A DNA stretch of 64,000 nt from IMG/VR virus record IMGVR_UViG_3300037258_000931, positions 1-64,000 of that record; one strand, 5' to 3'. The notes under the pieces were generated by a model that saw only the letters and a list, made by a program, of their open reading frames with translations, was not told where the DNA came from and searched no databases. This DNA comes from a virus (Duplodnaviria > Heunggongvirae > Uroviricota > Caudoviricetes). Below are positions 5,726 to 46,163 of the stretch, one piece after another. The position numbers were made by a program, and so were the translations under genes. The first letter of the stretch is position 1; each line of letters starts with the position of its first letter.

Positions 5726-5767
5726 GAATGCGCTGCGTAAGCGCAGCGGGTGCAGGTAGCAGAGTGT

Positions 5768-5843
5768 GCGGGCGTAGCTCAGTTGGCAGAGCAAGTGACT
5801 CTTAATCACGAGGTCGGGGGTTCGATGCCCTCCGCCCGCACCA
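5768..5843 (+). tRNA. tRNA-Lys (anticodon CTT)
   Basis: Acceptor GCGGGCG/CGCCCGC, anticodon stem AGTGA/TCACG loop CTCTTAA, T-arm GGGGG-TTCGATG-CCCTC, CCA. Confidence 0.7.
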
Positions 5844-5851
5844 GAAAAGCA

Positions 5852-6020
5852 GAGATCAGGTTTCAGGGATCAGTAGTCAGGGATCAGGGATCAGTTAGAA
5901 GCAACGGCAAAAGCAAAAGCAACCGCAGGTCCTTCGGCTCCCTCCGGTCGCTCAGGATGACAGTCGAGGCAAGGATGACAGGTTTTTTCTGATCCCTGAT
6001 CTCTGACCCCTGATCCCTGT
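5852..6020. repeat. GGGATCAG-family element, full
   Basis: Canonical arms; core with gcaaaagcaaaagcaa and duplicated aggatgaca box. Confidence 0.85.
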
Positions 6021-6032
6021 TATTATGCGGGC

Positions 6033-6416
6033 ATGAGCGAGGATGTACATCAGAGCGGGAGCGAACCGATTTCGGACCGGCTCTGTTTTGTCTTTCGCAA
6101 CCCCTTGGGGCGCTGGGTGATCGGCAATGTTCTCCGGCCGGGGCTGGCCTGGAGCGGATCGCGATGGGTGCCACACCACGACGGGCTGCCCGCGGGGGAC
6201 GCGCAGGTGTCGAACTGGGAGAGCAGAGAGGCCGCCTGGAAGGCGGCCGACGCGTTGCGGTTGGCGATTGCGCTGTTCGGCTGTCATGTGGACGACTTGA
6301 GCATCACCTGTTTTCAGTGCGGGCTGATCAGCTTCCATCCCGAGGATGTGCACAACCGGTATTGCGGGAACTGTCATGTATTTCACGGAGACGAGCCGAC
6401 TCAAGTGTACGGGTAG
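6033..6416 (+). CDS. hypothetical Cys/His-rich protein
   Basis: 127 aa; starts right after a repeat element; ITCFQCG...HNRYCGNCHVFH. Confidence 0.35.
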   Translation: MSEDVHQSGSEPISDRLCFVFRNPLGRWVIGNVLRPGLAWSGSRWVPHHDGLPAGDAQVSNWESREAAWKAADALRLAIALFGCHVDDLSITCFQCGLISFHPEDVHNRYCGNCHVFHGDEPTQVYG

Positions 6417-6454
6417 GGATATGGGTGAGTCTAGAAACTGGACTGGCAGACTTA

Positions 6455-6530
6455 GGGAGCGTCGCATAGCGGCAACTGCACTCGACTTTTAATCGAAAAG
6501 ACGTGGGTTCAAATCCCACCGCTCCCACCA
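6455..6530 (+). tRNA. tRNA-Lys (anticodon TTT)
   Basis: Acceptor GGGAGCG/CGCTCCC, anticodon loop CTTTTAA between TCGA stems, T-arm GTGGG-TTCAAAT-CCCAC, CCA. Confidence 0.65.
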
Positions 6531-6536
6531 GGAAGG

Positions 6537-6751
6537 CAGGGGTCAGGGATCAGGGATCAGTTAAGTGCAACGGCAAAAGCAAAGGCAACCGCGGGTCCTT
6601 CGGCTCCCTCCGGTCGCTCAGGATGACAGCTCTGGGGCAGGTCGCTCGGGATGACAGCTTTTTGCTGGTCCCTGACCCCTGACCCGTGATCCCTGATCCC
6701 CGACCCCTGATCTCTGATCGCTGATCCCTGATCTCTGATCGCTGATCCCTG
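6537..6751. repeat. GGGATCAG-family element, full, extended right arm
   Basis: Core variant with gctcaggatgacagctctggggcaggtcgctcgggatgacagc; right arm about 10 units. Confidence 0.85.
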
Positions 6752-6755
6752 TTTT

Positions 6756-6832
6756 GGCCCCGTAGCTCAGGCGGATAGAGCAGTCGTTTCCTAAACGATT
6801 TGTCGGGAGTTCGAATCTTCCCGGGGCCACCA
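6756..6832 (+). tRNA. tRNA-Arg (anticodon CCT)
   Basis: Acceptor GGCCCCG/CGGGGCC, TAGCTCAGGCGGATAGAGC, anticodon stem GTCGT/ACGAT loop TTCCTAA, T-loop TTCGAAT, CCA. Confidence 0.65.
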
Positions 6833-6871
6833 GTTCTGTCGCCCGCTCTAAGGGGGCAGGCACCGGTTTCG

Positions 6872-6947
6872 GCGCGCGTAGCTCAAGCGGATAGAGTGCT
6901 GGCCTCCGAAGCCAGGGATTGCAGTTCGAGTCTGCACGCGCGCACCA
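6872..6947 (+). tRNA. tRNA-Arg (anticodon CCG)
   Basis: Acceptor GCGCGCG/CGCGCGC, anticodon stem CTGGC/GCCAG loop CTCCGAA, T-arm TGCAG-TTCGAGT-CTGCA, CCA. Confidence 0.7.
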
Positions 6948-6970
6948 TAAATGCTCTAGGATGGAGAGCT

Positions 6971-7159
6971 ATGATTGAGATTGTGTATTTGCGAAAGAAC
7001 CGGAAGGGTGAGGTTGTCTCCATGCGCCAGGGCCACTGGGAAAGCTGGCAGCAGATGATGGGCGAAGTCCAGAGGGCCGTCGACGGCGAGATAAAAAAGA
7101 CCTCAAGCGCAGTTAGAAAAAGCACAGTTAAAAAGCGAAGCTCAAAAAAGCGGAGTTAA
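6971..7159 (+). CDS. small lysine-rich hypothetical protein
   Basis: 62 aa after tRNA-Arg(CCG); basic C-terminal tail KKRSSKKRS. Confidence 0.3.
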   Translation: MIEIVYLRKNRKGEVVSMRQGHWESWQQMMGEVQRAVDGEIKKTSSAVRKSTVKKRSSKKRS

Positions 7160-7225
7160 TTCAGCGGCTAGAATGCTTGTCCTACACACAAGACGTCGGG
7201 GGTTCGAGTCCCTCACTCCGCACCA
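7150..7225 (+). tRNA. tRNA-Val (anticodon TAC)
   Basis: Acceptor GCGGAGT/ACTCCGC, anticodon stem CTTGT/ACAAG loop CCTACAC (C at position 33), T-loop TTCGAGT, CCA. Confidence 0.6.
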
Positions 7226-7237
7226 ATTCTGTTGTCG

Positions 7238-7290
7238 AGTTTCAGGGGTCAGTTGTCAGGGGTCAGTGGAAGCGAGAGCAAGAGCGCTCA
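7238..7290. repeat. GGGATCAG-family partial (left arm plus core start)
   Basis: gtttcaggggtcagttgtcaggggtcag...agcgagagcaagagc; lies just upstream of the 7300 GTG start. Confidence 0.6.
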
Positions 7291-7299
7291 GAGGGAGAC

Positions 7300-7503
7300 G
7301 TGATCTTGAAAGACGTTTATCTAGGGGACGGCCTGTATGCTCACTTTGACGGCTACCAGATTGAGTTGTATGCGTTCAACGGGGTAGGCAAGACGGCCAG
7401 CGTGTTTCTGGAACCGGCAGTGCTGAAGAGTTTTCTGGCGTACGTCGAAGACTTGAAGCGCCGGATTGCGGCCGACCCGGCGGGAAGTTTTTTGCAGCAG
7501 TGA
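7300..7503 (+). CDS. small hypothetical protein
   Basis: GTG start preceded by GAGGGAG; 67 aa. Confidence 0.35.
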   Translation: MILKDVYLGDGLYAHFDGYQIELYAFNGVGKTASVFLEPAVLKSFLAYVEDLKRRIAADPAGSFLQQ

Positions 7504-7510
7504 TTCACGA

Positions 7511-7585
7511 GCCGGTATAGCTCAAGCGCAGAGCACTCGACCGATAATCGAGAGGTTGCAGCCTCAGAAGCTGCTACCGGCACCA
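7511..7585 (+). tRNA. tRNA-Ile (anticodon GAT)
   Basis: Acceptor GCCGGTA/TACCGGC, anticodon stem CTCGA/TCGAG loop CCGATAA (C33), T-arm GCAGC-CTCAGAA-GCTGC, CCA. Confidence 0.6.
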
Positions 7586-7601
7586 GGTTTATAATGCTTT
7601 C

Positions 7602-7937
7602 ATGCTCTGGGAAGTAAGCGTCGAAGGGTCGCTCGTAAGCTATGGAGAAGATGAGGATGGCCGGGCGATTCCGTGTTTGTCTGAAGACACGATTGCGTTC
7701 ATCGAAGAGGGTCGAGACCTGATCGAGATCATGATGCTGGTGCAGGCGAAACTGGATGTTTTGAACGGAAAGCTCAAGCAAAAATATCCAGACCTGTACA
7801 AGGACGACCTGGACTGGGAGTACAAGATCGTGGGGATCGGGAGAACCGATCTGGTTCGCTTCGATGACCGGTGGATAGAGGAATTTGTGGACAAGGAAGT
7901 GATGACCTGGAACAGCAATGAGGAAGAAAATTCCTAA
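7602..7937 (+). CDS. hypothetical acidic protein (lower-GC segment)
   Basis: 111 aa; region 7.6-8.45 kb is visibly more AT-rich than its surroundings. Confidence 0.4.
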   Translation: MLWEVSVEGSLVSYGEDEDGRAIPCLSEDTIAFIEEGRDLIEIMMLVQAKLDVLNGKLKQKYPDLYKDDLDWEYKIVGIGRTDLVRFDDRWIEEFVDKEVMTWNSNEEENS

Positions 7938-8012
7938 GCGAGCGTGGTATAGCGGCTGGTGCCCTGGGCCTCCAACCCAGAGACGCGGGTTCGACTCCCG
8001 CCGCTCGCTCCA
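7938..8012 (+). tRNA. tRNA-Gly (anticodon TCC)
   Basis: Acceptor GCGAGCG/CGCTCGC, anticodon stem CTGGG/CCCAG loop CCTCCAA (C33), T-arm GCGGG-TTCGACT-CCCGC, CCA. Confidence 0.6.
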
Positions 8013-8027
8013 TCATTCGAGGTAGGG

Positions 8028-8405
8028 ATGACAAACAAACGCGCTCCTTCTGTATCGAGTTGGCATGATATCCCGGACTCGGTTGTAGATGAGTTTAGTA
8101 AAAAGGTTCGGCAGCTTCAGCGAGAGATGATTCCGCTCGATGGCGATGGAGATATAGCTGTCGAGATAATCATTGTCGACCGGAGGAAGTTTGAGCCACT
8201 TCACTTCCAACCTATACCCTATAACCACCCGCCTTACGGAACGAAATGGACGCCAGAAGAAGAGGCTGCTGTCCATGAGGAGCGATTGCGCTGGCTATCC
8301 TGCAACGCGGATATGGCAAATCGTTCGCTTGAGACTTTTCTGTCTCTGGAACTATATCGCCTGGCTTCTGAGCGTGAAAAAGGTGCCAAAAACTTTCAAA
8401 AATAG
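8028..8405 (+). CDS. hypothetical protein (lower-GC segment)
   Basis: ATG right after tRNA-Gly; 125 aa. Confidence 0.4.
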   Translation: MTNKRAPSVSSWHDIPDSVVDEFSKKVRQLQREMIPLDGDGDIAVEIIIVDRRKFEPLHFQPIPYNHPPYGTKWTPEEEAAVHEERLRWLSCNADMANRSLETFLSLELYRLASEREKGAKNFQK

Positions 8406-8645
8406 CGCGCATGATTTTACATAGGACTATGATATAGTCGTTTTCACGTGCCAGTTCTCCGCTTGAAAACCCCGCGTACCATCCCCCGCCTGCAACTCTC
8501 TCCTTCTTTCCCCAATCTGCCTCGCAAGCTGGCCCCCGGGCCGGGAGGAATCCCGGCCGCGTGTTTCCAAAGCAACAATTTGCGCCCGTGGGCCGCAAAG
8601 GGGTAGACTCGGCTTCGATTCCAAGTTCTATTTTGAGGAGCAACG

Positions 8646-9407
8646 ATGACCAAGATGCATGAGCTGCTGGCCGTACAGACGAACCTGAACGGCCAGGCAA
8701 CCAAGACCCGCACCGGCTTGATGGACACCTTCAGAACCAAGCGGCACCTGTTTGAGAAGAAGGTGAAGGCGTTTCAGCCTCTCGGCGAAGGCGCCGACCT
8801 GACCATCGAAGAGCAGTCCGATATCCAGACCACGGTGCCTAAGGAGATCGAGTGGCTGAAGGGCCACCTGGTGAAACAAATCGATGTGGGTTTGCGCGTA
8901 GACGTGGGCAACCGGATCGCCGAGGCTGACGTGGTGGACGAAGAAGACACCAAGATCCTGGCCAAAATGCCGGCCACCACGCTGCTGTGGCTGGAAAAAC
9001 GGGTGCAGGAGGTAAAGGAGCTGATCGAGGCCATTCACACCCTGGACCCGGCCAAGGGATTTACCGAGGACCGGGATGCGGGCGTGGGGTACTGGAAGGC
9101 GCGCGAAGTGAAGAAGGAGCGCACCAAGAAAAAGAAAGTGGTGATCGTGAAGTACGACGCTGTGGATAAGCACCCGGCGCAGACCGAGCTGGTGGACGAG
9201 GACGTGGTGGTAGGCACGATTCGCGAGCAGGAGTGGAGCGCGCTGATCACGCCGGCGATGAAAGCGGAGCTGTTGAACCGGGCGGAGATGCTGATTCGGG
9301 CGGTGGCCAAGGCTCGCTCCAAGGCCAACGAGCAGGAAGTGGACATCAAGGACGCCAAGATCGGAGACGTGCTGCTTGACTACGTCTTCAAGCCTCTGCT
9401 AGGGTAA
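8646..9407 (+). CDS. hypothetical protein
   Basis: 253 aa; upstream promoter-like TTGCGC..17..TAGACT and RBS GGAGGAG; charged, coiled-coil-like composition. Confidence 0.45.
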   Translation: MTKMHELLAVQTNLNGQATKTRTGLMDTFRTKRHLFEKKVKAFQPLGEGADLTIEEQSDIQTTVPKEIEWLKGHLVKQIDVGLRVDVGNRIAEADVVDEEDTKILAKMPATTLLWLEKRVQEVKELIEAIHTLDPAKGFTEDRDAGVGYWKAREVKKERTKKKKVVIVKYDAVDKHPAQTELVDEDVVVGTIREQEWSALITPAMKAELLNRAEMLIRAVAKARSKANEQEVDIKDAKIGDVLLDYVFKPLLG

Positions 9408-9558
9408 TCGCGGGTGGGGTCGGCCTTGACCGGCCGGCCCGATTCCAGGTTAAGGCTGAGGCTGAGATTCAGCGGACGCGCGAGCGCGAGCGTGAGGCTC
9501 AGGTTGACACCCCAGGCTTATCGCGGAGAACGATAGCTCGACAGACGAGACTCTTTTT

Positions 9559-9595
9559 ACGGTGGTCGTCGGTTCGAATCCGGCGGGAGCCCCCA
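9559..9595 (+). tRNA. orphan tRNA 3' half (anticodon-stem 3' strand, variable loop, T-arm, acceptor 3' strand, CCA)
   Basis: ACGGT-GGTC-GTCGG-TTCGAAT-CCGGC-GGGAGCC-C-CCA; no matching 5' half upstream; perfectly complementary to the 5' half found 11 nt downstream. Confidence 0.3.
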
Positions 9596-9605
9596 AAATA
9601 TTCAT

Positions 9606-9642
9606 GGCTCCCTAGCTCAGCGGTAGAGCAGCCGTCTCAGGT
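9606..9642 (+). tRNA. orphan tRNA 5' half (acceptor 5' strand, D-arm, anticodon-stem 5' strand and loop)
   Basis: GGCTCCC-TA-GCTC-AGCGGT-AGAGC-A-GCCGT-CTCAGGT; no T-arm or acceptor 3' strand downstream; GGCTCCC pairs with GGGAGCC of the upstream 3' half; candidate anticodon CAG (Leu) if the loop is CTCAGGT. Confidence 0.3.
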
Positions 9643-9683
9643 TAAAAGTTTCGGGTTGAAGAGCGAGGCGTTGCCGCACCGTA

Positions 9684-9757
9684 CTTGAGATAGCTCAGAT
9701 TGGTAGAGCATTCGACTTGTAATCGAAGGGTCTCTGGTTCAAATCCAGATCTCAAAC
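9684..9757 (+). tRNA. tRNA-Thr-like (anticodon TGT), C1:A72 mismatch, no encoded CCA
   Basis: Acceptor CTTGAGA/TCTCAAA (terminal C-A mismatch), TAGCTCAGATTGGTAGAGC, anticodon stem TTCGA/TCGAA loop CTTGTAA, T-arm TCTGG-TTCAAAT-CCAGA. Confidence 0.45.
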
Positions 9758-11388: not shown

Positions 11389-11450
11389 GAACAGGGGTCA
11401 GAGAACAGGTTTCAGAGAACAGAGAACAGAGATCAGAGATCAGTAGTCAG
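11389..11450. repeat. GGGATCAG-family solo left arm (degenerate)
   Basis: aacaggggtcagagaacaggtttcagagaacagagaacagagatcagagatcag. Confidence 0.6.
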
Positions 11451-11469
11451 AAAAAAACGAGGAGGGACG

Positions 11470-11712
11470 ATGGCGACGATGGAGATGGAAGGGACGCTGG
11501 CGGTGCTGGACAAATCGGGCGACAGCCGCATGCAATGGAACCCCAACAGCCCGGAAGAGGTGGCCAAGGCGCGGGCTCGCTTTGACGAATTCAGAAACAA
11601 GGGCTACCTGGCCTATAAAGTGAGCCCCTCCGGTGGCCAGGGGGAAGTGATCTCGGCCTTCGATGAGGCTGCGGCGCGAATCATTCTGCATAGCCCGATG
11701 GTAGGAGGATAA
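11470..11712 (+). CDS. hypothetical protein
   Basis: 80 aa; SD GAGGAGGGACG upstream. Confidence 0.35.
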   Translation: MATMEMEGTLAVLDKSGDSRMQWNPNSPEEVAKARARFDEFRNKGYLAYKVSPSGGQGEVISAFDEAAARIILHSPMVGG

Positions 11713-11715
11713 GCG

Positions 11716-12195
11716 ATGTGTCTTTCTTCCGTCACTGAGTTGTACGACCGGCCGTCGTCGCTGATTGTCGATGGTTGGAAGTCGATCGGCGCGGCGAAAC
11801 CATCCTTCCAGCTCAGCGTGAACGGTAAAACAGCGATCCCCTTCGATGAGTGGATTACCGCAACTACCGAGCATGCTAAAGGCGGCAAGATCCGGGCCGA
11901 CGACGGCAAACACTATCCCTGCGGCTTTCACTGCTACAGCGACGAGAAGGAGTTGAAGGAACTGCAGCCAAAGAGCCGGGTGTTTGTACGCGGCATCCTT
12001 GCCCTGGGCAAGCAGAACGGAAAAGCTGTGGTGATTGCGAGCGAGATCTATCTGCCGTCGAAGCAGGATGGGTGGCCGCCGCTGGAGGCGGCCGGAGTTC
12101 CGCCGGCCGATCCCGCGCCAGGCGCCGCTGCGGGCGGCGGTCCAGCACAGGCGAAAAACAAGCTGACCCGGTTATTGGGTGGAAAGAAGCAGTGA
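11716..12195 (+). CDS. hypothetical protein
   Basis: 159 aa; tightly packed after the previous ORF; Pro/Ala/Gly-rich C-terminus. Confidence 0.4.
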   Translation: MCLSSVTELYDRPSSLIVDGWKSIGAAKPSFQLSVNGKTAIPFDEWITATTEHAKGGKIRADDGKHYPCGFHCYSDEKELKELQPKSRVFVRGILALGKQNGKAVVIASEIYLPSKQDGWPPLEAAGVPPADPAPGAAAGGGPAQAKNKLTRLLGGKKQ

Positions 12196-13052
12196 TGCCT
12201 GACAACAAGACTATGGTCTGGACGGCGCGGCTTGGGGGCGGTCTCCAGCCGGCCGCCCAGGGTGTGCAGGCGGCGGGGACGGCCCGGGTGCTTTACGCGG
12301 GCAATCAAGCTGGTTGCAATCTAGCTGGTTCTGGCCTGACTGGTTCTAGCCTGACTGGTACTGACGCAACTGTTTTTGCTGTAACCGGAGGATCGGCGAG
12401 TATGAATTACTCGGAGCCAGTGGTTTGGTATGACGGGTGTCGGGCGCCAAAAATCGCCAATAAATATGCCTATGCGCAATGGTGCACGAGTTTGGGCTAC
12501 CTGAATCAGACGCCCAGCAGCTTGTGGGCCAGCAAGCCGTGGCACTGGTATACGGGGACGACGCAGAGTGACTCGATGGCATGGTCTGTTCTGCCGTCCA
12601 CTTCAGTGCCTCCATTCTATGTGAACACGCTCATCGACGCGCCTCTGGAAACCGAGGCACAGAAGGCAGAGCGGCAGCAGCGGCTGGACAAGCTGCGCGA
12701 AGCGGAGCGGGCGGCTGAGCTGCGCGCGGAAGAGGTTTTGCTGATGTGCCTGAATCCGGTGCAGGAAATGGAGTACAGGCAGCACGGCTGTTTCCATTTG
12801 CAGGTGAATGAGCGGCGCTATCGGATCAATAAAGGACGTACGGGCAACGTGGAGCTGATTCACGAAGGGCTGCCGGTCTATCGTTACTGCGCGCATCCGG
12901 ATCTGTGGACGCCGGACCAGGACGTAATGCTGGCGCAGATGTTGATGCTGCAGACCGACGAGAAACGGTTTCTGGCAACCGCCAATCGGACGGTGCTGAC
13001 GCGAAACCTGCCGGCATCAGGGAACGATGAATTACTGGAGCTGGCCGCATGA
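12195..13052 (+). CDS. hypothetical protein
   Basis: ATG at 12195 overlapping the upstream stop (TGATG); 285 aa; contains short tandem nt repeat encoding LAGSGLTGSSLTG. Confidence 0.4.
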   Translation: MPDNKTMVWTARLGGGLQPAAQGVQAAGTARVLYAGNQAGCNLAGSGLTGSSLTGTDATVFAVTGGSASMNYSEPVVWYDGCRAPKIANKYAYAQWCTSLGYLNQTPSSLWASKPWHWYTGTTQSDSMAWSVLPSTSVPPFYVNTLIDAPLETEAQKAERQQRLDKLREAERAAELRAEEVLLMCLNPVQEMEYRQHGCFHLQVNERRYRINKGRTGNVELIHEGLPVYRYCAHPDLWTPDQDVMLAQMLMLQTDEKRFLATANRTVLTRNLPASGNDELLELAA

Positions 13053-13348
13053 GCGACGAGAGCGAAAAGACGGGCCATTTTTGGGTCAACGGGGTGGTCG
13101 CCCAGCGCGACGAAAAGCCCTATGTGCAGCTTTCCAATGAGAAGGGCATGGTGGCTCAGTTCTCGATCAGCGAGGCACGGCAGGTGGCCATGGATATCCT
13201 GCAGATGAGTGCCCGCACGGAAGCCGACGCGATGATTCTGAAGTTTTTCAAAAAGGCGGAACTCCCGATGGGGGCCGCGGCGGCGCTGATGGCCGAGTTT
13301 CGGGATTTTCGGGCCGAACTGGATGCCGAGGAGGCGGAGCGGACATGA
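13049..13348 (+). CDS. hypothetical protein
   Basis: 99 aa; ATGA overlap with the upstream ORF; immediately upstream of the cas12-like gene. Confidence 0.35.
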   Translation: MSDESEKTGHFWVNGVVAQRDEKPYVQLSNEKGMVAQFSISEARQVAMDILQMSARTEADAMILKFFKKAELPMGAAAALMAEFRDFRAELDAEEAERT

Positions 13349-13449
13349 GCTTCGACGATTGGCTACCAGACCCCGGACGAGATCGAGGCGGAGCTTAGAA
13401 AACACATCGAAGACAAAATACCGGGGACAAAAAGACCGAGGTAAAAACC

Positions 13450-15687
13450 ATGATTGAGCGGTTGACGGTGGGCAAAGATGGCGCGGTGGAAGTGCATCTG
13501 ACTGGCATCTCTTTGCAGGCGACCAAGGCGTTTACGCATGGCACGCTGGGGTTCGATCTTCAGGCGCGCACCGTGACTTTCGGCAAGCTGGCGCCGGTGG
13601 CGCTCCCCGCAGAACTGCAGCCGTCGGCGGGCGCCGCAGTGCATTTGCGGCTGCTGGGCCCGGATGGAGAGCTGCGCAAGCAGACGCGATCTGGAACGTG
13701 GACGGCGGTGGGCAAGCAGCCGCATCTTTTGCGCATCGGCGGCCACGCGCAGACGGCGCGCAAGTTCCCGGCCGAGGAGGGCTGGAGCAACCGGACGTAC
13801 AAGTATCGCGCGTACTTCAGCCATCCCGGGGCCGAGACCGATGGGGAACTGCCGGAGTGGCTGCGCGGGTCGATCGCGCGGCAGCGGGCGTACTGGAATC
13901 GCCTGGCATGGCTGTGCCGGGATGCGCGCCGCAAGTGCTCGACGGAGTCTCCAGAGCAAGTGGCGGAGTTTGTAGGTCAAGTGATTGTGCCGGCGATCGA
14001 TGCGTTTAACGAGGCGATCGGGCCGGATCGGCGTCGCGCCAAGGAGCGGCTCAAGCATCCGCAGAAGCTGAAGGACCGGCCCGGGATCGACGGGTTGTGG
14101 GCCTTTGCCGGGCTGCTGCGCGCCTGGGAGGGGAAGGGGCATCCGGTTCCCGAGGGGCTGATGGACCGGGTGCTCGCGTTTGCCAAACAGTTCCAGCCCG
14201 ATTACGCTCCGCTGAACGAGTTTATGCGAGATCTGAGCCAGATTGCGGCGGCGGAGGCCGAGCGGCTGGAGCTGAAATGGTTCGAGGTGCGGCCGGAGCT
14301 GAGCAGCTTCAAAGCCACCCTTGACCGTCGCAGGACTGTGCAGGCGTCCTGGTCGGACGGCTGGCCGATGCTACGTTTTGCGCAGCTCGGGAAGGATCTC
14401 GACTGGGGGCTGCATTACTACCTCAGGAAGGCTGGGGTGGGCACGGAGTTACTGGAGACCGGCAAAGGGGTGCCGGGGCTCAGTCTCGGGGCGCCGCTGA
14501 GCCACGCTGAAACCGGCCATCCTCACCTTTGTGGGGCGGCGGCCAAGCGGGCGCTGCGCGAGGCCCGGATTTCGATTCCTGGGGAAGGGAAAGACCGCTG
14601 GATCTTCCGGTTTGCGGTGCTGGAACATCGGCCGCTGCCGGCCCATGCGCATGTGAAGGAGTGGAAGCTGGTGTTCAAGGGAGGCGAGCTGTGGCTGTGC
14701 CTGGTGGTGGAGATGCAGCAGCCGCTGCCGGAGCCCAGCGCCCAGGCCGCGGGGCTGGATATCGGCTGGCGGCGGACGGCGGAGGGCATTCGCTTCGGGA
14801 CTCTCTACGAGCCGTTGGCGGGGACGGTGCGGCTGCTGGAGATGGATTTCGGGCGCTCGCCGCGCGATCCTGCCGACAGGGTACCGTTCCGGATCGATCT
14901 GGGACCGAGCCGGTGGCAGAAGCGCAACCAGAAACGGCTGTTTCCGGAGCCGGTGGCTGAGGGGGAGAGCGCGGCGGCGCGCCCGCATGACGGGGCGGAA
15001 GTGCCAGGGCTTTTAGAGACTGGGATTCAACTGCAGACGCGGCGCGACTACGAGAAGGATACGGTGAAGATTCTGCTGCGGCGGTATCTGGGAGAACGAA
15101 CTCCGCCGTGGCTGGACAGGGCCGGACTCTCGGGATTGCGCAGGCTGCGGGAAGAGTTGAAAGACGATGCCGGCGCGTGGGCTATTTTAGAGGCGTGGCG
15201 GTTGAAGGACGACGAGATTGGGGCATTGACCGCTTTTTATTTTGCGCGCTCGACGCGGCGCATCGAGTACGGGCATCTGCAGGTGGCGCACGATGTCTGC
15301 CGGCACCTGCGCGACCAGGGAGTATCCCGGTTGGCAGTGGAAACCAGTTTTCTAGCCAAGCTGGCGCAGAACCAGAGCAGTGAGGTCCCGGTAGCCCTGA
15401 AGCGTTCGCAGAAATACCGGCAGGTTGCGGCACTGGGAAAGTTTGTGGCCGTGCTCCGGAATACGGCGATCAAGTACGGCGTGGCCGTGGATGAGCATGA
15501 CGCGGCCAATACAACCCGGATCTGCCGGTACTGCAACCATCTGAATGAGGCGACAGAGCGGGAGAAGTACAACTGCGCGGCCTGCGGCCGGGAGCTGAAG
15601 CAGGATGAAAATGCGGCGGTGAACCTGTCGCGGTTCGCGGCCGATCCGGAGCTTGCGGAGATGGCGTTGCAGGCGGGGAGGAAGTGA
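13450..15687 (+). CDS. cas12: Cas12/TnpB-family RuvC nuclease (745 aa), putative type V CRISPR effector
   Basis: The C-terminal third carries RuvC-I (AAGLDIGWRR, about aa 436), RuvC-II (RLAVETSF, about aa 629), a CxxC...CxxC zinc finger (CRYCNH...CAACG) and RuvC-III (DENAAVNL, about aa 718), in the order typical of Cas12/TnpB; a CRISPR array starts 56 nt downstream. Confidence 0.75.
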   Translation: MIERLTVGKDGAVEVHLTGISLQATKAFTHGTLGFDLQARTVTFGKLAPVALPAELQPSAGAAVHLRLLGPDGELRKQTRSGTWTAVGKQPHLLRIGGHAQTARKFPAEEGWSNRTYKYRAYFSHPGAETDGELPEWLRGSIARQRAYWNRLAWLCRDARRKCSTESPEQVAEFVGQVIVPAIDAFNEAIGPDRRRAKERLKHPQKLKDRPGIDGLWAFAGLLRAWEGKGHPVPEGLMDRVLAFAKQFQPDYAPLNEFMRDLSQIAAAEAERLELKWFEVRPELSSFKATLDRRRTVQASWSDGWPMLRFAQLGKDLDWGLHYYLRKAGVGTELLETGKGVPGLSLGAPLSHAETGHPHLCGAAAKRALREARISIPGEGKDRWIFRFAVLEHRPLPAHAHVKEWKLVFKGGELWLCLVVEMQQPLPEPSAQAAGLDIGWRRTAEGIRFGTLYEPLAGTVRLLEMDFGRSPRDPADRVPFRIDLGPSRWQKRNQKRLFPEPVAEGESAAARPHDGAEVPGLLETGIQLQTRRDYEKDTVKILLRRYLGERTPPWLDRAGLSGLRRLREELKDDAGAWAILEAWRLKDDEIGALTAFYFARSTRRIEYGHLQVAHDVCRHLRDQGVSRLAVETSFLAKLAQNQSSEVPVALKRSQKYRQVAALGKFVAVLRNTAIKYGVAVDEHDAANTTRICRYCNHLNEATEREKYNCAACGRELKQDENAAVNLSRFAADPELAEMALQAGRK

Positions 15688-15743
15688 AGCGCATCGGACC
15701 AGTGCAACAGATTTAGTCTCTACCGATTTCGCGGGGCGCAGTC

Positions 15744-16933
15744 GTCGCAACCGAGTTTGAGTGCACTGGGTAAGTGCAACCGGCGCCTTCACTCAGTCTT
15801 GCCTGCGCGGCAGACGTCGCCACGGGGCCAAGTGCACTGGGTAAGTGCAACGTGATGTTGTTCGTCATTTGGGCCTCGCCTCTTCCGTCGCAACGGGGTC
15901 CAAGTGCACTGCGTAAGTGCAACAATTTGGCTCGTACGTTCCACCCGAGGCAATCCGGTCGCAACCAGGACAAAGTGCACTGCGCAAGTGCAACTGCGAT
16001 TGTCTTCGCTAATGACTGTCAACAGCGCGTCACAACGGGAACCAAGTGCACTGAGCAAGTGCAACAGCTATACCTAAACTTTAGTGTCAAGCAAATGGAG
16101 TCGCAACGGGGTCCAAGTGCACTGAGTAAGTGCAACCTTATTGGCTGTCATGGAAGCACGCCGGAGGTTTAAGTCGAAACCGGGACCAAGTGCGCTGCGT
16201 AAGTGCAACGTTCCCCTCCAGCGTGTGAACACAAATTCGTGCGTCGCAACAAGGACGTAGTGCACTGGGCAAGTGCAACCGCAACCCTGGTGTTTATTGA
16301 ACCGCCGTTTGCCGTCGTCGCAACGGGCAAGTAGTGCGCTGAGTAAGTGCAACTCTACAGGACAGACGCGCAAGCTGAAGTCTGGCGGGTCGCAACGGGC
16401 GCCAAGTGCACTGGGCAAGTGCAACCTTGCACCGCCGCGCTATATGCCGCTCCAATACGTCGCAACGGGGTCCATGTGCACTGGATAAGTGCAACTTTTG
16501 CTTGGCACCGCAGAAAGCCCAAATCTCGTCGTCGCAACGGGGACCAAGTGCACTGAGTAAGTGCAACCACCATGTTATCGCAGGTTCTCGCCATACCGAT
16601 CAGTCGCAACGGGCGCCAAGTGCACTGGGCAAGTGCAACTTTGCCCCTTCGACTCGTACACGGTTGAGGTCGTGCCGCAACGGGGTCTAAGTGCACTGGA
16701 TAAGTGCAACGACTCCCCCACTCGCCGCCAGACCAATGTAATCTATCGTCGCAACGGGCGCCAAGTGCACTGGGCAAGTGCAACTCAAGTGAAATGGAAC
16801 AGCGAGCTATATCACTAGGTCGCGACGGCCGCGAAGTGCACTGGGTAAGTGCAACACCTAACCGCTGCGCCTATGCGGAAATTTAGAGTCGTCGCAACCG
16901 GAACGTAGTGTGCCGCGGAGGCGCAACTTTGCG
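15744..16933 (+). CRISPR. CRISPR array, about 17-18 repeats of 36-37 nt (consensus GTCGCAACGGGGTCCAAGTGCACTGGGTAAGTGCAAC) with unique 31-37 nt spacers
   Basis: Repeats share a 5' GTCGCAAC and 3' AGTGCACTGGGTAAGTGCAAC (hairpin TGCAC/GTGCA) but differ in the central about 9 nt; terminal repeats degenerate; an extra truncated repeat fragment (CCAGTGCAAC, 15700-15709) overlaps the cas12 stop region. Confidence 0.8.
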
Positions 16934-17652: not shown

Positions 17653-18864
17653 ATGTCCGACAGCCTGCGCTCACCCGACATTCCCGAAACACTTCCTGAC
17701 CGGCAGCCGAAGTTTCATCACTCGGCGGAGTTCGACCAGATATACGCCGCTTTCATCGACGCCCAGGCTGAATTTACGCCCGTGGCGAAGAACAAGACCG
17801 CTACCGTCTACAGCGCCAAAACCGGCAAGAGCTACACCTACAAGTTTGCCGACCTGGCCGACGTGCTCGGCATGGCGCTGCCGGTGCTGACCCGGCACAA
17901 GATCGGTCTGATGCAGCCGCACCTGATGGTGAGTGGCCGGCTGCGAGTGGTGACTCGGCTGATCCACGCCTCAGGCCAATGGATGATGAACGACGGTTTG
18001 GATATGGTGGAAGCTCAGGCGCGGCAGGATTTCGGCGGCGACTCCAGTTACAACCGGCGCTACGACGTGTGCAGTTTTCTGGGCATCGTGGCCGACGAGG
18101 ATACCGACGTTCAGCATCAGGGGATGGATTCCGACAAAGCTTCGGTACGGCAGCCAAAGCCGGTAACGCCGGCCCAGGCTCTGGCGCAGACCTCCGCGCA
18201 GACCTCCGCGCAGAATGGATCGGACAGCGCGGCCGGGAATTCGCGGGGCAATGCCTCTGCGAGCGATCGGAAGGGTTCGCCGGCAGCAGAGGAGCTGCTG
18301 GGGGCGCGCGCGGCGCTGGTGAACAAGCTGAAAGAGCTGGCGCCGGGGCCCGAACTTGGCAAGCGGGCCGGCGCCATGTTTCCGCAGCATAAGAGTACCC
18401 GGACGCTGACCGTGGCAGATCTGGAACAACTGCATGCGGTGCTGCTGCGCGAAAAACTGGACAACCAGAAACGGGAGCAGGAAAAGCTGGATCGGGAGAA
18501 GCGAGATCAGGAGAAGCTGGAAAGCGCGAAGCCGGAGCCGGCGGCTGCGAAGCCTGAGCAGCCAAAGCCGGGGCAAGCCGACGTGGTGCGCGATGCCGGC
18601 GACGAGGTGGCAGAGATGTTTGACGACGCAATGAAGAAACCGCAGACGCCGACCGCCGGAGAGACCATCGGCAAGGGTCTGGGACATCGGCTGCATAAGC
18701 TGATCGGGATTCACAAGATCCACACCGAGCAGGAACTCAAGGACGACTATCTGACGCCGTACGGTGTGGAACACGTATCGGATTTGCCGCGCGATCTCTA
18801 CGAGCGGTTATGCGCGTGGGCAGAGGGAACGCTGGAAGAAGGGAAGTCGATTGGCGATGCGTAG
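17653..18864 (+). CDS. erf: ERF-family single-strand annealing protein (recombinase)
   Basis: N-terminal AAFIDAQAEF..V.KNKTA...YKFADLADVL....PVLTRHKIGL matches the ERF signature; acidic and Lys/Glu-rich C-terminal extension. Confidence 0.7.
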   Translation: MSDSLRSPDIPETLPDRQPKFHHSAEFDQIYAAFIDAQAEFTPVAKNKTATVYSAKTGKSYTYKFADLADVLGMALPVLTRHKIGLMQPHLMVSGRLRVVTRLIHASGQWMMNDGLDMVEAQARQDFGGDSSYNRRYDVCSFLGIVADEDTDVQHQGMDSDKASVRQPKPVTPAQALAQTSAQTSAQNGSDSAAGNSRGNASASDRKGSPAAEELLGARAALVNKLKELAPGPELGKRAGAMFPQHKSTRTLTVADLEQLHAVLLREKLDNQKREQEKLDREKRDQEKLESAKPEPAAAKPEQPKPGQADVVRDAGDEVAEMFDDAMKKPQTPTAGETIGKGLGHRLHKLIGIHKIHTEQELKDDYLTPYGVEHVSDLPRDLYERLCAWAEGTLEEGKSIGDA

Positions 18865-22022: not shown

Positions 22023-22075
22023 CCCTAGAGTTAGATTATGGCGCATTGCGCCAATTTAACTGTGAGGGGGAGTCC

Positions 22076-23263
22076 GTGAAGAGACCGAGGAAGCGGGTAG
22101 AGCAGTTTGGGTACGTGGAAGGACCTAAAAACGGGTCGTATTTTCTGCGTTATTGGGGCTCGCCGGATGGTGAGGGAAAGAGAAGCCGGTGCGCGATTGA
22201 AATTGGCTTGAAGGGGCAGTTCAACAGCAAAGAGGAAGCTTCTTATTCGATCGAAGCAGCGAAACTGCGGCGTCGCATCAACGCCGGAGCGATTGGCCGC
22301 ACCGTGGGCCAGATTGCGGCGGAGTTTGAGCGCGACGCGATGCCAAAACGGGCTAATACTCGCGCTACCGATCTGACCTGCCTGCGGCATATCGTGAAGA
22401 AGTGGGATACAGAGCCCATTGCCGGGCTGACCGAGACCACGGAATCGAAGCGGCTGGAGGGCTGGCTGGACCGCATGCGCAGGTTCGATGGCTCGCAGGA
22501 GCTGAGCTATTCGGCCAAGAAGAATGTGCGCCAGCAGATGGCGACTCTGTTTGATTTTGCGATGAAGCAGGGTTACATTCCTACCAACGTAAACCCCATG
22601 GAACGGGTTCACCTGGTGCAGCGGGAAGAGCCCCGGCGCCGGCAAAAGTTATCGCCTAAGCTGCTGGATCTGTTTTTTGCCAGCCCGGATATCCCGGAGT
22701 ACGTAAAGGTCATCGCGCACGTCGCCAAACGCACCGGGTTCCGCATCAGCGAAATTCTAGGACTGAAAAAAGAGGATTTTGATCTGGACAGCAATTTGGT
22801 AACGGTGCGGCGTCGGATCTATCGGGAGGAGATCGCGGGACCTAAAAGCAAGAAGTCCGGAGACCCGGTGCCCTTCGACGAGGAGCTGTTTCGGATTCTA
22901 AGCGCGTGGCTGAAGTCGCCGGGCAACTACCCCAACTTCGAAGGCTGGCTGTTTTGTTCACCCATGACGCGCCGCCCCTACTCCGCCGATGGGATGCAGT
23001 TGAGCCACCTCCGCCCCTTCGGGCTACGGCACGGGATCGAGAAGTTCGGCTGGCACAGTTTCCGGCACGGCTTTAAGGACTACCTGAAAGAAGCGGAGAC
23101 GCCGCTCGATGAGATCAAGCGCCTGATGCGGCACTCCAAGATCCAGACCACTGACGGGTATGGCTCTGAAAGCAGTATGGAGACGTTGCGCCGGCGCCAG
23201 GCCGCTGCGATTGCGCTGATGGAACGGCCAGCGGTTGAACCGAAGAAGCGGAAGTGGGCGTGA
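22076..23263 (+). CDS. int: tyrosine integrase (site-specific recombinase)
   Basis: GTG start after GAGGGGGAG; C-terminal catalytic region with RISEILGL, HSFRHGF, RLMRHS...TDGYG (R..H..R..Y). Confidence 0.8.
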   Translation: MKRPRKRVEQFGYVEGPKNGSYFLRYWGSPDGEGKRSRCAIEIGLKGQFNSKEEASYSIEAAKLRRRINAGAIGRTVGQIAAEFERDAMPKRANTRATDLTCLRHIVKKWDTEPIAGLTETTESKRLEGWLDRMRRFDGSQELSYSAKKNVRQQMATLFDFAMKQGYIPTNVNPMERVHLVQREEPRRRQKLSPKLLDLFFASPDIPEYVKVIAHVAKRTGFRISEILGLKKEDFDLDSNLVTVRRRIYREEIAGPKSKKSGDPVPFDEELFRILSAWLKSPGNYPNFEGWLFCSPMTRRPYSADGMQLSHLRPFGLRHGIEKFGWHSFRHGFKDYLKEAETPLDEIKRLMRHSKIQTTDGYGSESSMETLRRRQAAAIALMERPAVEPKKRKWA

Positions 23264-45507: not shown

Positions 45508-45753
45508 ATGGTTGATTCTTTTCATCCTCCTTCTGAGGTGCTCTCATTGTGGGTGGTCTACGCGCATCCGCTGGACTACCCACAGAACTTTGTGCTGCGG
45601 CGCTGGGAGTTGCGCGATAGGGTGTTACTGCCCACCAACGAGGTGTCGCTGGGAATGACTTTCGAAGAGATTCGCGCCGCGCTGCCGCCGGGGCTGTATT
45701 GGCTGCCCCGTTTCGCAGGCGACGATCCGTGTATTGTGGAGGTGTGGCTGTGA
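45508..45753 (+). CDS. small hypothetical protein
   Basis: 81 aa. Confidence 0.3.
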   Translation: MVDSFHPPSEVLSLWVVYAHPLDYPQNFVLRRWELRDRVLLPTNEVSLGMTFEEIRAALPPGLYWLPRFAGDDPCIVEVWL

Positions 45754-46001
45754 GCGACGATCGGCTGCAGGACCTTGAACTCTACGCCTGGGTGGGCGAA
45801 GATGAGTTCGGCAGCGGCGCGGTTGGGTTGAAGCAAGGCGTGGTGCCCGCTGGGACCATTCCCATGGTGGCCATCGAGCGGGAGAAGCTGGACCGGTACT
45901 GGGCAAACGCGGAGCGGCAAGCCGCGGCCTTTGGCAAGCGAATCTCGCTGGTGCGATTCAGGGCGGTAGAAGTGGTGAGGCGGACGGCTGCGGGGGACTA
46001 A
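45750..46001 (+). CDS. small hypothetical protein whose stop codon abuts the mini CRISPR array
   Basis: GTG overlapping the upstream stop (GTGA); 83 aa; TAA at 45999-46001. Confidence 0.3.
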   Translation: MSDDRLQDLELYAWVGEDEFGSGAVGLKQGVVPAGTIPMVAIEREKLDRYWANAERQAAAFGKRISLVRFRAVEVVRRTAAGD

Positions 46002-46163
46002 GTGCACTGGGCAAGTGCAACTCAACGGAGGCAGGTTTGCCCTCTTCGGCAAGCGTTGCAACGAAGACAAAGTGCGCTGGAGAAGTGCAACAGTTCATGG
46101 TGATATGAATTGCGGGCGAAGGCGGGGTTGCAACCAGCTCCGAGCGCACTACGCGCGTGCAAT
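46000..46163 (+). CRISPR. mini CRISPR array (3 repeats / 2 spacers) of the same repeat family, first and last repeats degenerate
   Basis: AAGTGCACTGGGCAAGTGCAAC (46000-46021), GTTGCAACGAAGACAAAGTGCGCTGGAGAAGTGCAAC (46055-46091), GTTGCAACCAGCTCCGAGCGCACTACGCGCGTGCAAT (46127-46163); spacers 31 and 34 nt. Confidence 0.55.

What the first reader, a model, noticed from the sequence alone, without database searches (positions are those of the whole stretch)
15744..16933. CRISPR repeats with a conserved 5' octamer and 3' hairpin but a hypervariable centre
Across the array the first 8 nt (GTCGCAAC) and the last about 21 nt (AGTGCACTGG(G/A)(T/C)AAGTGCAAC) are nearly invariant, while positions about 9-17 differ in almost every repeat (GGGGTCCAA, GGGCGCCAA, CAGGACAAA, AAGGACGTA, CCGGGACCA ...). 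Typical CRISPR arrays keep repeats near-identical through gene conversion. Such patterned divergence suggests only the two ends are functionally constrained (effector binding and processing), or that the array is old and no longer homogenised, which fits the absence of cas1/cas2.
Basis: seen in the sequence. Interest (0 to 1): 0.6.

Follow-up and report, generated by a model that had tools for sequence, protein, structure and literature searches.

The report
Phage CRISPR array with non-identical repeats
A phage-like element carries a CRISPR array next to a small Cas12m-like gene, and almost every repeat differs except at the positions the guide RNA needs, most likely because the element has no cas1/cas2 machinery to keep re-copying one repeat.

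Summary
Window 15744-16927 holds 17 repeats of 37 nt (one of 36), and 15 of them are distinct. In the 16 non-terminal repeats, 51 of 58 non-consensus letters fall in positions 9-16 and in the hairpin loop (26-28). The 5' octamer and the hairpin stem are almost fixed. An independent assembly reproduces the first ten repeats exactly.

The array follows a 745-aa Cas12 gene whose predicted fold is closest to Cas12m. The conserved 3' 21 nt (A-G, 6-bp helix, loop, A-C) has the same layout as the core of the solved Cas12m2 crRNA scaffold. Across 195 distinct repeats from related loci the helix is 97% paired, with compensatory changes.

Among relatives, the three arrays that follow a cas4-cas1-cas2 module have uniform leader-side repeats. 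Arrays without the module are heterogeneous in the same positions (one, L002, starts with ten identical repeats). The effector tree suggests the module's presence changed at least three times.

Uniformity, however, normally comes from Cas1-Cas2 copying the first repeat, not from gene conversion, and "old array" is doubtful because related arrays turn over quickly. The role of the 5' octamer is unresolved. I rate this a new variant of a known kind, of moderate interest.

The parts
13450..15687 (+). Effector gene: a 745-aa Cas12m-like type V protein with RuvC residues D437/E631/D719 and a CxxC...CxxC zinc ribbon (TNB domain)
   Evidence: Pfam Cas12f1-like_TNB, E 1.4e-10. PADLOC Cas12u1 (V-U1), E 1.5e-29, and a Cas12f-labelled model, E 2.2e-31. 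Family profile against the PDB: Cas12m, E 5.7e-20. AF2 model with pLDDT 84; best Foldseek match is Cas12m2 8HHL, E 2.5e-21. Catalytic columns.
15688..15708 (+). First unit of the array, scaffold half only (AGCGCATCGGACCAGTGCAAC). It starts one base after the effector stop codon, has no 5' octamer, and its stem is weakened to 4 of 6 pairs. A 35-nt spacer (15709-15743) follows.
   Evidence: Repeat family D2; nhmmer hit in register with the array; fold. Related arrays also start with a hairpin-only unit (L001, the L009 group, L030, the array upstream of the effector gene in L002).
15744..16927 (+). CRISPR array: 17 repeats (37 nt, the second 36 nt) and 16 unique spacers of 33-37 nt. It is read in the same direction as the effector gene.
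16389..16396 (+). 5' octamer GTCGCAAC, shown for repeat 10. It occupies positions 1-8 of every repeat; each repeat has at most one change, with 5 changes in total across the repeats.
   Evidence: In the pooled family G1, G4, C5, A6 and A7 vary least within arrays; A6 and A7 are the most constant between arrays.
16397..16404 (+). Variable centre, positions 9-16, shown for repeat 10 (GGGCGCCA). It acts as a linker whose sequence is free and whose length is kept (8 nt, 7 in repeat 2).
   Evidence: No covariation with the octamer or the loop.
16405..16425 (+). crRNA scaffold, positions 17-37, shown for repeat 10: A17 G18, stem 19-24 (UGCACU), loop 25-29 (GNNNA), stem 30-35 (AGUGCA), A36 C37. The spacer follows directly.
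   Evidence: The MFE fold shows the 6-bp hairpin in 11 of the 12 array repeats folded. Family covariation. Layout identical to Cas12m2 A(-24) G(-23) / 6 bp / A(-2) C(-1).
16891..16927 (+). Terminal repeat. The octamer is intact (GTCGCAAC). The hairpin has a different sequence but still pairs (UGUGCC/GGCGCA, 6 bp).
45985..46163 (+). Second mini-array of the same repeat family, with the same design. The first unit is hairpin-only (46001-46021) and its first base overlaps the TAA stop of ORF 45699..46001. Then come a full repeat (46055-46091, octamer GTTGCAAC) and a terminal repeat (46127-46163) that keeps the octamer but has a degenerate hairpin. There are two spacers.

Best explanation
This is most likely a working guide-RNA array of a phage-borne, Cas12m-like type V system that has no spacer-acquisition genes of its own.

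Inferred from the gene direction and the type V rule that the repeat lies 5' of the spacer: the array is transcribed with the effector gene. Each guide RNA would consist of the last 21 nt of a repeat followed by the spacer.

Shown by covariation and by layout identity with the solved Cas12m2 crRNA: those 21 nt form A-G, a 6-bp hairpin with a 5-nt loop, then A-C. In Cas12m2 the equivalent G.A pair, the terminal C and the flipped-out A are read by the protein. This would explain why A17, G18, A36 and C37 are invariant although unpaired, and why the stem changes only in compensated pairs.

Positions 9-16 and loop positions 26-28 appear not to be needed, so they vary freely.

Shown as a correlation among relatives; the causal step is inferred from established Cas1-Cas2 biology: no Cas1-Cas2 integrase duplicates the first repeat at each acquisition, so repeats are never renewed from one template. 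Mutations, and probably recombination between arrays, therefore accumulate wherever selection allows.

The 5' octamer is also under selection. It travels with the spacer upstream of it: the first unit lacks it and the last unit keeps it. I think it most likely marks the 3' boundary or processing site of the preceding guide RNA. It could instead be the recognition end for a type I-C-like Cas1-Cas2 supplied in trans. This last step is not settled.
For: - Anatomy and statistics of the array.
- Effector identity.
- No anti-repeat or tracrRNA candidate in the window: the 21-nt pattern matches only the repeats themselves, and the inverted-repeat scan finds nothing relevant.
- Hairpin: 97% of cells paired over 195 distinct repeats against 19-48% with slid partners. 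Pair 23:31 is U-A 138 / C-G 52. Pair 24:30 is C-G 136 / U-A 40 / U.G 13. Pair 22:32 is A-U 170 / G.U 18 / G-C 3. The highest mutual information in the whole repeat is at 23:31. G18/A36 co-occur in 187 of 195 and A17/C37 in 182 of 195.
- Cas12m2 scaffold AG-CUUGGC-GGGCGAAG-GCCAAG-AC, with protein contacts to G(-23).A(-2), C(-1) and A(-24) and a disordered 5' end (PMC10442227).
- Adaptation genes: cas4-cas1-cas2 sit between the effector and the array in L058, L005 and L006 (Pfam). tblastn finds them only in L005/L022, L006, L058, L065 and L069 and not in the window.
- Uniformity tracks the module: 41 of 45 adjacent repeat pairs are identical with it, 19 of 161 without it. A run of at least 8 identical repeats occurs in 3 of 3 arrays with it and 1 of 16 without it (Fisher P = 0.004).
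- The three cas1-positive loci are scattered in the effector tree, each with cas1-negative neighbours.
- Within-array variation in other cas1-negative arrays falls in the same positions.
- Octamer behaviour at the first and last units of both window arrays.
Against: - No expression, processing or interference data exist. No target was found for any window spacer, so activity is inferred only from the selective pattern.
- The first unit's hairpin in the main array is weakened to 4 of 6 pairs.
- The uniform-versus-heterogeneous contrast rests on three cas1-positive arrays. One cas1-negative array (L002) starts with 10 identical repeats. 'cas1-negative' is known only within 6-kb flanks, except for the window.
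- The closest solved relative is only about 16% identical. Cas12m2 has an extra pseudoknot stem that finds no counterpart here.
- Simple drift does not explain how closely related strains (98-99.8% identical effector genes) differ so much inside their arrays.
Confidence: 0.7

Rival explanations
1. The variability is sequencing or assembly noise, for example a chimera of strain variants collapsed by the assembler. The true array would have uniform repeats.
For: The sequence comes from a metagenome, and repeats are hard to assemble. The Logan contig L092 breaks inside repeat 10, the first of three identical repeats.
Against: - L092, made by a different assembler, is identical to the window over 5,005 nt including the first ten repeats.
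- Errors would not avoid the octamer and stem (P = 3.5e-15) or preserve base pairing (the A22-to-G changes keep a G.U pair; the terminal repeat is compensated).
- Heterogeneous arrays of relatives recur with identical repeat series in 3-4 independent metagenomes.
- A 37-nt repeat with both flanks fits inside a single short read.
Confidence: 0.03
2. The array is an old relic that decays neutrally after loss of the adaptation module. The pattern would be left over from past function rather than maintained now.
For: There is no cas1/cas2 in 64 kb. No spacer target was found. The first hairpin is weakened. The centre diversity of 0.40 per site is high.
Against: - Neutral decay would hit all 37 positions alike. 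Instead 23 positions stay almost fixed, while the variable positions reach a per-site pairwise diversity of up to 0.73.
- The intact 745-aa effector ORF with a complete D-E-D triad and zinc ribbon lies directly upstream.
- A second mini-array with the same constraints exists 30 kb away.
- Related cas1-free arrays gain and lose interior units between near-identical strains, so such arrays are dynamic.
Confidence: 0.1
3. The heterogeneity is mainly produced, or even favoured, by recombination. In one version, units are exchanged between arrays of different co-infecting phages, giving mosaics. In the other, diversified repeats are selected because they shorten the stretches of identity and so protect spacers from recombinational deletion in a genome that encodes its own single-strand annealing recombinase.
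For: - Within single related arrays two hairpin versions alternate (UGCACU/AGUGCA and UGCAUC/GAUGCA). They differ by four coordinated letters, and each dominates in other arrays (L001, L009, L056).
- Strain variants share end spacers but differ in interior blocks, and centre and loop variants assort independently.
- An Erf-like annealing protein gene lies about 725 bp downstream of the array (17653-18864).
- By inspection of the repeats, most repeat pairs share no identical run longer than about 10 nt.
Against: - All 16 regular repeats in the window carry one hairpin stem version (two with an A22-to-G wobble change). Their G/C-rich centres were seen in no other locus, so import from sampled arrays is not evident.
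- Recombination shuffles variants but does not create them.
- Selection for dissimilarity is not needed to explain the pattern and was not tested.
- This rival complements the main explanation rather than excluding it.
Confidence: 0.15

Closest known systems
Type V-M (Cas12m / former V-U1) CRISPR-Cas, in particular the Cas12m2 and GoCas12m crRNA scaffolds (PMC10442227, PMC11013384)
   Same: - Closest fold (8HHL E 2.5e-21, 8PM4 E 6e-18) and closest profile matches.
- The window has no adaptation genes and no tracrRNA candidate.
- The repeat is 36-37 nt.
- The scaffold core is A-G, a 6-bp helix, A-C, directly before the guide.
   Different: - Only about 16% identity, and the sequence match covers only the C-terminal half.
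- 745 aa against about 600 aa.
- The loop is 5 nt, and no second stem or pseudoknot is supported.
- Some relatives carry cas4-cas1-cas2 with a type I-C-like Cas1.
- The context is phage-like.
- Whether it binds DNA without cutting, as Cas12m does, is unknown. The window protein has a D-E-D triad, but so do some non-cutting Cas12m proteins (PMC11013384).
Cas12a (type V-A) arrays, where the 5' part of each repeat is cut off during guide maturation and only the 3' hairpin stays in the guide (my own knowledge; the processing site is mentioned in PMC10442227)
   Same: The guide is the 3' hairpin of the repeat plus the spacer. The 5' part of the repeat serves as a spacer-side separator. Between orthologues the repeat ends are conserved and the middle varies.
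   Different: Cas12a arrays are uniform within a locus and are normally linked to cas4-cas1-cas2. Here the separator differs from repeat to repeat within one array. The proteins are not closely related (Cas12a is not among the top fold matches).
Compact phage-encoded type V systems without adaptation genes (CasPhi/Cas12j, CasLambda) and huge-phage arrays (PMC7162821; PDB 7M5O, 8DC2, 9IZM)
   Same: A small single effector next to an array on a phage-like genome rich in tRNA genes, with no cas1/cas2.
   Different: The fold matches are much weaker (E 1e-6 to 1e-8, TM about 0.2-0.3) and there is no sequence match. I did not find a report of within-array repeat heterogeneity for those systems; my literature search was limited.
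Degenerate terminal repeats and orphan or decaying CRISPR arrays (general knowledge)
   Same: Repeats that are no longer copied accumulate changes. The last repeat loses its spacer-distal part, as seen here in L003 and L006.
   Different: Here every repeat differs, not only the last. The changes respect a precise functional mask, which points to an array in use rather than to decay.

Membership tests
CRISPR array | Direct repeats of constant length, regularly interspaced by unique spacers of similar length | tested here: met
   17 repeats of 37 nt (the second 36 nt) with a period of 70-74 nt, and 16 unique spacers of 33-37 nt
CRISPR array | Near-identical repeats within one array | tested here: not met
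   15 distinct sequences among 17 repeats. Mean pairwise difference is about 8 of 37 over 18 units, including the hairpin-only first unit. 23 of the 37 positions are nearly fixed.
CRISPR array | Linkage to a cas effector gene | tested here: met
   The array starts 57 nt after the stop codon of a Cas12-type gene. The first hairpin-only unit starts one base after the stop codon.
Type V (Cas12) system | Single large effector with a C-terminal split RuvC domain and a zinc-ribbon (TNB) insertion | tested here: met
   Pfam PF07282. D437/E631/D719 and four Cys are conserved in 36-37 of 38 homologues; position 437 is D in 27 and E in 10. The top 50 fold matches listed are Cas12, TnpB or related RNA-guided proteins.
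Type V (Cas12) system | Repeat-derived handle lies 5' of the guide, with its structured part next to the spacer | tested here: inconclusive
   The hairpin occupies the 3' end of the repeat in the effector's reading direction, and the leader-distal repeat is the degenerate one. No RNA data exist.
Type V-M (Cas12m) | Effector belongs to the Cas12m protein family | tested here: inconclusive
   Cas12m is the best fold and profile match. However, identity is about 16%, the sequence match is limited to residues of about 360-730, and the protein is 745 aa against about 600 aa. No phylogeny with reference Cas12 families was made.
Type V-M (Cas12m) | Guided by crRNA alone, without a tracrRNA | tested here: inconclusive
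   No anti-repeat in the window: the 21-nt pattern with up to 3 mismatches hits only the repeats, and the inverted-repeat scan finds nothing relevant. Absence of evidence only.
Type V-M (Cas12m) | crRNA scaffold with a pseudoknot: two interleaved stems, plus the G.A pair and the terminal C | tested here: not met
   The A-G/6-bp/A-C core is present. A second stem between the centre and the loop has no support: no covariation, and the loop is only 5 nt.
Type V-M (Cas12m) | Locus lacks adaptation genes | tested here: inconclusive
   True for the window and most relatives. Five related loci carry cas4-cas1-cas2.
Type V-M (Cas12m) | Binds target DNA and silences it without cutting | not testable with these tools
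   The window protein has a D-E-D triad, and 10 of 38 relatives have E at the first position. Cas12m proteins with D-E-D also fail to cut (PMC11013384), so the sequence does not decide.

The most novel reading that the evidence does not exclude
This may be a distinct, mostly phage-borne subtype of type V, related to Cas12m but larger. Its guide handle would be a minimal 21-nt hairpin. Its arrays would stay functional and keep exchanging spacers without Cas1-Cas2. In that case the repeat is not one unit but two short signals (a 5' octamer and a 3' scaffold) around a free linker, and spacer turnover would occur in the array interior by a route other than leader-end integration, either recombination between arrays or trans-acting integrases acting at internal repeats. 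In about a quarter of relatives the same hairpin sits 16-24 nt upstream of the effector's start codon. This hints that the effector also binds its own mRNA leader to regulate itself.
Probability: 0.25. Interest if true: 0.8.

Novelty: new variant of a known kind. Interest (0 to 1): 0.55.

Why it matters
The array works like a natural mutational scan. Seventeen repeats in one genome, and 195 distinct repeats in the family, show which letters a compact Cas12m-like effector needs in its guide RNA: A-G, six base pairs of free sequence, A-C, and possibly a 5' motif. This is directly useful for designing minimal or non-repetitive guide arrays.

The comparison with relatives that still carry cas4-cas1-cas2 gives unusually clean comparative evidence that repeat uniformity is a by-product of acquisition, not a requirement of interference.

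The strain comparisons raise a testable question: how do phage arrays without adaptation genes renew their spacers?

Tried and rejected
- **Other RNA structures in the repeat.** Pairing of the 5' end with the 3' end (1-5 with 33-37) is rejected: position 3 never pairs, and changes at 2, 4 and 5 are uncompensated. A small hairpin in the 5' half (4-8 with 12-16), suggested by some folds and by L009 and L002, is rejected: only 24-81% paired and no mutual information. A Cas12m2-like second stem between centre and loop is rejected by inspection of the window repeats and by mutual information.
- **tracrRNA.** No anti-repeat was found.
- **Rfam.** No CRISPR-DR or other family matches the array, even at E up to 1.
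- **Spacer targets.** Nothing in the window, in 92 related loci, in INPHARED phages, or in IMG/VR for three spacers.
- **Partial self-match.** An 18-of-20 complementarity between 16514-16533 (the 3' end of a spacer plus three repeat bases) and the effector gene at 15208-15227. The repeat-proximal 18 nt of the spacer (the Cas12 seed side, by general knowledge) lie outside the match, so I treat it as probably chance.
- **Direct protein search.** The single protein found nothing in IMG/VR or INPHARED. The alignment-based search did find loci.
- **Literature.** A search for the repeat sequence itself gave only unrelated hits. CasDelta (867-936 aa) was checked and is a different family. CasLambda and CasPhi are only weak fold matches.
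- **Alignment method.** hmmalign trimmed the diverged 5' halves of repeats, so the statistics use fixed 37-nt units anchored at the 3' end.
Full report
**1. What is there**

Window 15744-16927 contains 17 direct repeats with a period of 70-74 nt, separated by 16 unique spacers of 33-37 nt. The repeats are 37 nt long; the second lacks one base in its centre.

The array begins 57 nt after the stop codon of a 745-aa ORF (13450-15687, + strand). One base after that stop codon lies a further, partial unit (15688-15708). It has only the 3' hairpin half of a repeat and is followed by a 35-nt spacer in correct register. The last repeat (16891-16927) keeps the 5' octamer exactly. Its hairpin has a different sequence that still pairs (UGUGCC/GGCGCA).

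A second mini-array of the same family lies at 45985-46163. It has the same design: a hairpin-only first unit whose first base overlaps the stop codon of an upstream ORF, one full repeat, and a terminal repeat that keeps the octamer.

**2.

Fifteen of the 17 repeats are distinct. Mean pairwise diversity per site is 0.07 in positions 1-8, 0.40 in 9-17, 0.08 in 18-24, 0.29 in 25-29 and 0.03 in 30-37. In the 16 non-terminal repeats, 51 of 58 non-consensus letters fall in 14 of the 37 positions (binomial P = 3.5e-15; the set was chosen after inspection). The octamer has 5 changes against 36 in the adjacent centre (P = 2e-6).

Position 17 is a fixed A. The hairpin loop is variable as well, at positions 26 (G/C/A), 27 (G/A) and 28 (U/C).

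The pattern is not an assembly artefact:
- A Logan assembly of run SRR11832711 reproduces window 11414-16418, including the first ten repeats, without a mismatch. It may derive from the same reads.
- Heterogeneous arrays of relatives recur with identical repeat series in contigs from three or four different metagenomes.

**3. The neighbouring gene and the wider context**

- Sequence: the 745-aa protein carries the Cas12f1-like TNB zinc ribbon. It matches the V-U1 (Cas12m) model of PADLOC over residues 364-730. As a family profile it matches Cas12m chains in the PDB best (E 5.7e-20).
- Structure: an AlphaFold2 model built on 38 homologues (pLDDT 84) is closest to Cas12m2 (8HHL, E 2.5e-21, TM 0.56 normalised by the target's length) and GoCas12m (8PM4). 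Cas12f, TnpB, Cas12g, CasLambda and CasPhi are clearly weaker.
- Catalytic residues: the RuvC positions are D437, E631 and D719. In the family the first is D in 27 and E in 10 of 38 sequences.
- Family size: at least 92 proteins of 40-62% identity. They come mostly from peat metagenomes, IMG/VR viral contigs and Acidobacteria (Terracidiphilus) MAG contigs.
- Window: it looks like a phage or prophage. It has 18 tRNA matches in Rfam (17 called by ARAGORN), one-strand coding, an Erf-like annealing protein at 17653-18864, an integrase and a primase/helicase.
- It contains no cas1, cas2 or cas4 detectable with the family's own adaptation proteins.
- It contains no anti-repeat that could mark a tracrRNA.

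**4. What the conserved 3' part is**

I extracted repeats from about 30 distinct related arrays with an HMM, which gave 195 distinct 37-nt units. Positions 19-24 pair with 30-35 in 97% of cells, against 19-48% when the partner is slid by one or two positions. The upper pairs covary:

| Pair | Observed types |
|---|---|
| 23:31 | U-A 138, C-G 52 |
| 24:30 | C-G 136, U-A 40, U.G 13 |
| 22:32 | A-U 170, G.U 18, G-C 3 |

Pair 23:31 has the highest mutual information of any position pair in the repeat, and 24:30 ranks third. A17, G18, A36 and C37 are nearly invariant yet cannot pair canonically.

This is the layout of the solved Cas12m2 guide. Its repeat-derived scaffold, recovered from the paper's template oligonucleotide and checked against every residue the paper names, is GUGUCAUAGCCC-AG-CUUGGC-GGGCGAAG-GCCAAG-AC. 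According to the paper (PMC10442227):
- G(-23) forms a non-canonical pair with A(-2).
- C(-22) to C(-17) pair with G(-8) to G(-3).
- A(-24) is flipped out and held by the protein.
- C(-1) is read base-specifically.
- The first seven nucleotides are disordered.

The repeat here reads AG-UGCACU-GGGCA-AGUGCA-AC. The 3' 21 nt is therefore most likely the effector-binding handle, and the invariant unpaired letters are the ones the protein is expected to read.

The extra stem that makes the Cas12m2 scaffold a pseudoknot has no counterpart here. The loop is only 5 nt, and centre and loop do not covary.

**5. Why the repeats differ**

Five related loci carry cas4-cas1-cas2 directly after the effector gene (L058, L005/L022, L006, L065 and L069). 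The Cas1 scores as type I-C-like (TIGR03640, 468 bits). Three of these loci include a sizeable array:

| Locus | Repeats |
|---|---|
| L058 | 22 of 22 identical |
| L005 | 11 of 11 identical |
| L006 | a block of 8 identical, then 4 that differ by one letter, then older variants |

In arrays without the module the repeats differ from one another in the same positions as in the window. Identical adjacent repeat pairs number 41 of 45 with the module and 19 of 161 without. A run of at least eight identical repeats occurs in 3 of 3 arrays with the module against 1 of 16 without (Fisher P = 0.004). The exception is L002, whose first ten repeats are identical.

In a neighbour-joining tree of the effectors the three cas1-positive loci are scattered, each next to cas1-negative lineages. 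The contrast has therefore arisen several times.

By established knowledge, each Cas1-Cas2 integration duplicates the leader-proximal repeat. This renews uniformity from the leader end, and the L006 and L002 gradients fit it. Without the integrase nothing resets the repeats.

In several cas1-free arrays (the window, L001, the L009 group, L030, and the array upstream of the effector gene in L002) the first unit has lost its 5' half. By general knowledge of Cas1-Cas2, that would make it a poor integration site. In L058, L005 and L006 the first repeat is intact.

**6. Not simply an old relic**

Five contigs (L009, L042, L056, L064, L066) are strain variants. Their effector genes are 98-99.8% identical. 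The arrays share the leader-side spacers (S01 to about S04), and the three that extend far enough (L009, L042, L056) share the last spacer. Their interiors differ by many units. The repeat in front of one and the same spacer differs between strains at centre and loop letters.

In L001, L009 and L056 two hairpin versions alternate within one array (UGCACU/AGUGCA and UGCAUC/GAUGCA). They differ by four coordinated letters, and each dominates in other arrays.

This points to exchange of units between arrays, or to acquisition at internal repeats, in addition to point mutation. For the window's own array no close strain was available; the nearest effector is 62% identical. Its history therefore cannot be read directly. 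All its regular repeats share one hairpin version, and its G/C-rich centres were seen in no other locus.

**7. The 5' octamer**

The octamer is under constraint in the window. In the pooled family G1, G4, C5, A6 and A7 vary least within arrays. Between arrays A6 and A7 are the most constant; G1, G4 and C5 also change. It shows no covariation with any other part of the repeat.

It is absent from the first unit and present in the last unit of both arrays in the window. Functionally it therefore belongs to the spacer on its 5' side. Two readings remain:
- It may be a signal for cutting or trimming the guide that ends there. In Cas12m2, processing takes place upstream of the scaffold by an unresolved mechanism. 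The octamer ends in GCAAC, as the scaffold does.
- It may be the integrase-recognised end of the repeat, kept because adaptation is borrowed in trans.

Nothing here decides between them.

**8. Comparison with what is known, and verdict**

The system works like a Cas12m or Cas12a-type crRNA array, with a handle at the 3' end of the repeat and a dispensable 5' separator.

I do not file it as a Cas12m member:
- The fold and part of the sequence agree.
- Identity is about 16%, and the protein is a quarter larger.
- The pseudoknot is not met.
- Some relatives carry adaptation genes.

The within-array heterogeneity, restricted to non-essential positions, was not found in the papers I could search. 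That search was limited, and decay of uncopied repeats is known in principle.

I therefore call it a new variant of a known kind. The interest is moderate. Its value lies in the natural map of guide requirements, the clean link between adaptation genes and repeat uniformity, and the open question of how such arrays renew their spacers.

Noticed in passing
window 45985-46163: A second mini-array of the same repeat family, 30 kb from the effector gene. It has a hairpin-only first unit whose first base overlaps the TAA stop of ORF 45699..46001, one full repeat with octamer GTTGCAAC, a terminal repeat with a degenerate hairpin, and two spacers without known targets.
   Followed up: partly
L001 5957-5977, L009 504-524, L010 5959-5979, L058 5957-5977, L030 5963-5983, L037, L062, L019, L070 (not present in the window upstream of 13450): A lone copy of the 21-nt hairpin scaffold lies 16-24 nt upstream of the effector start codon in 9 of 41 distinct related loci. 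The 'guide' that follows it is the effector's own ribosome-binding site and start codon. This suggests the effector may bind its own mRNA leader (autoregulation), or it may be the remnant of an upstream array. In the window only a decayed trace, at most, is visible at about 13395-13415.
   Followed up: partly
L009, L042, L056, L064, L066 (arrays downstream of the effector gene): These are strain variants with 98-99.8% identical effector genes. They share leader-side spacers, and the three that extend far enough share the last spacer, but they differ by many interior units. Spacer turnover is therefore interior rather than at the leader end, and it occurs without a linked cas1-cas2.
   Followed up: partly
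L058 8197-10147, L005 8263-10207, L006 8293-10237: A cas4-cas1-cas2 module sits between the effector and the array in a minority of relatives. The Cas1 scores above the curated cut-off of the type I-C Cas1 model (TIGR03640, 468 bits), which suggests the module was captured from a type I-C system.
   Followed up: partly
window 17653-18864: A gene for an Erf-like single-strand annealing protein lies about 725 bp downstream of the array. An integrase (22046-23263), a primosomal protein and a primase/helicase follow. The recombinase could act on the repeats, but this was not tested.
   Followed up: no
window 196-9757: A cluster of 17-18 tRNA genes, all on the + strand, just upstream of the CRISPR locus. 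This is typical of large phages.
   Followed up: no
window 16514-16533 versus 15208-15227: The 3' end of one spacer plus the first three bases of the next repeat is 18-of-20 complementary to a site inside the effector gene. The repeat-proximal half of the spacer (the expected seed side) does not match, so this is probably chance.
   Followed up: partly
L059 7271-7289 and 7480-7502: Spacers from two related arrays (L073 and L015) match nearby sites in L059 (19 of 19 and 22 of 23). L059 is another contig that carries a homologous effector. This hints that these phages target one another.
   Followed up: no
L002 1681-2142, L033 40-649, L041 3383-3560: Some relatives have arrays on both sides of the effector gene. 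The upstream array is read in the same direction and ends a few tens of nucleotides before the start codon.
   Followed up: no
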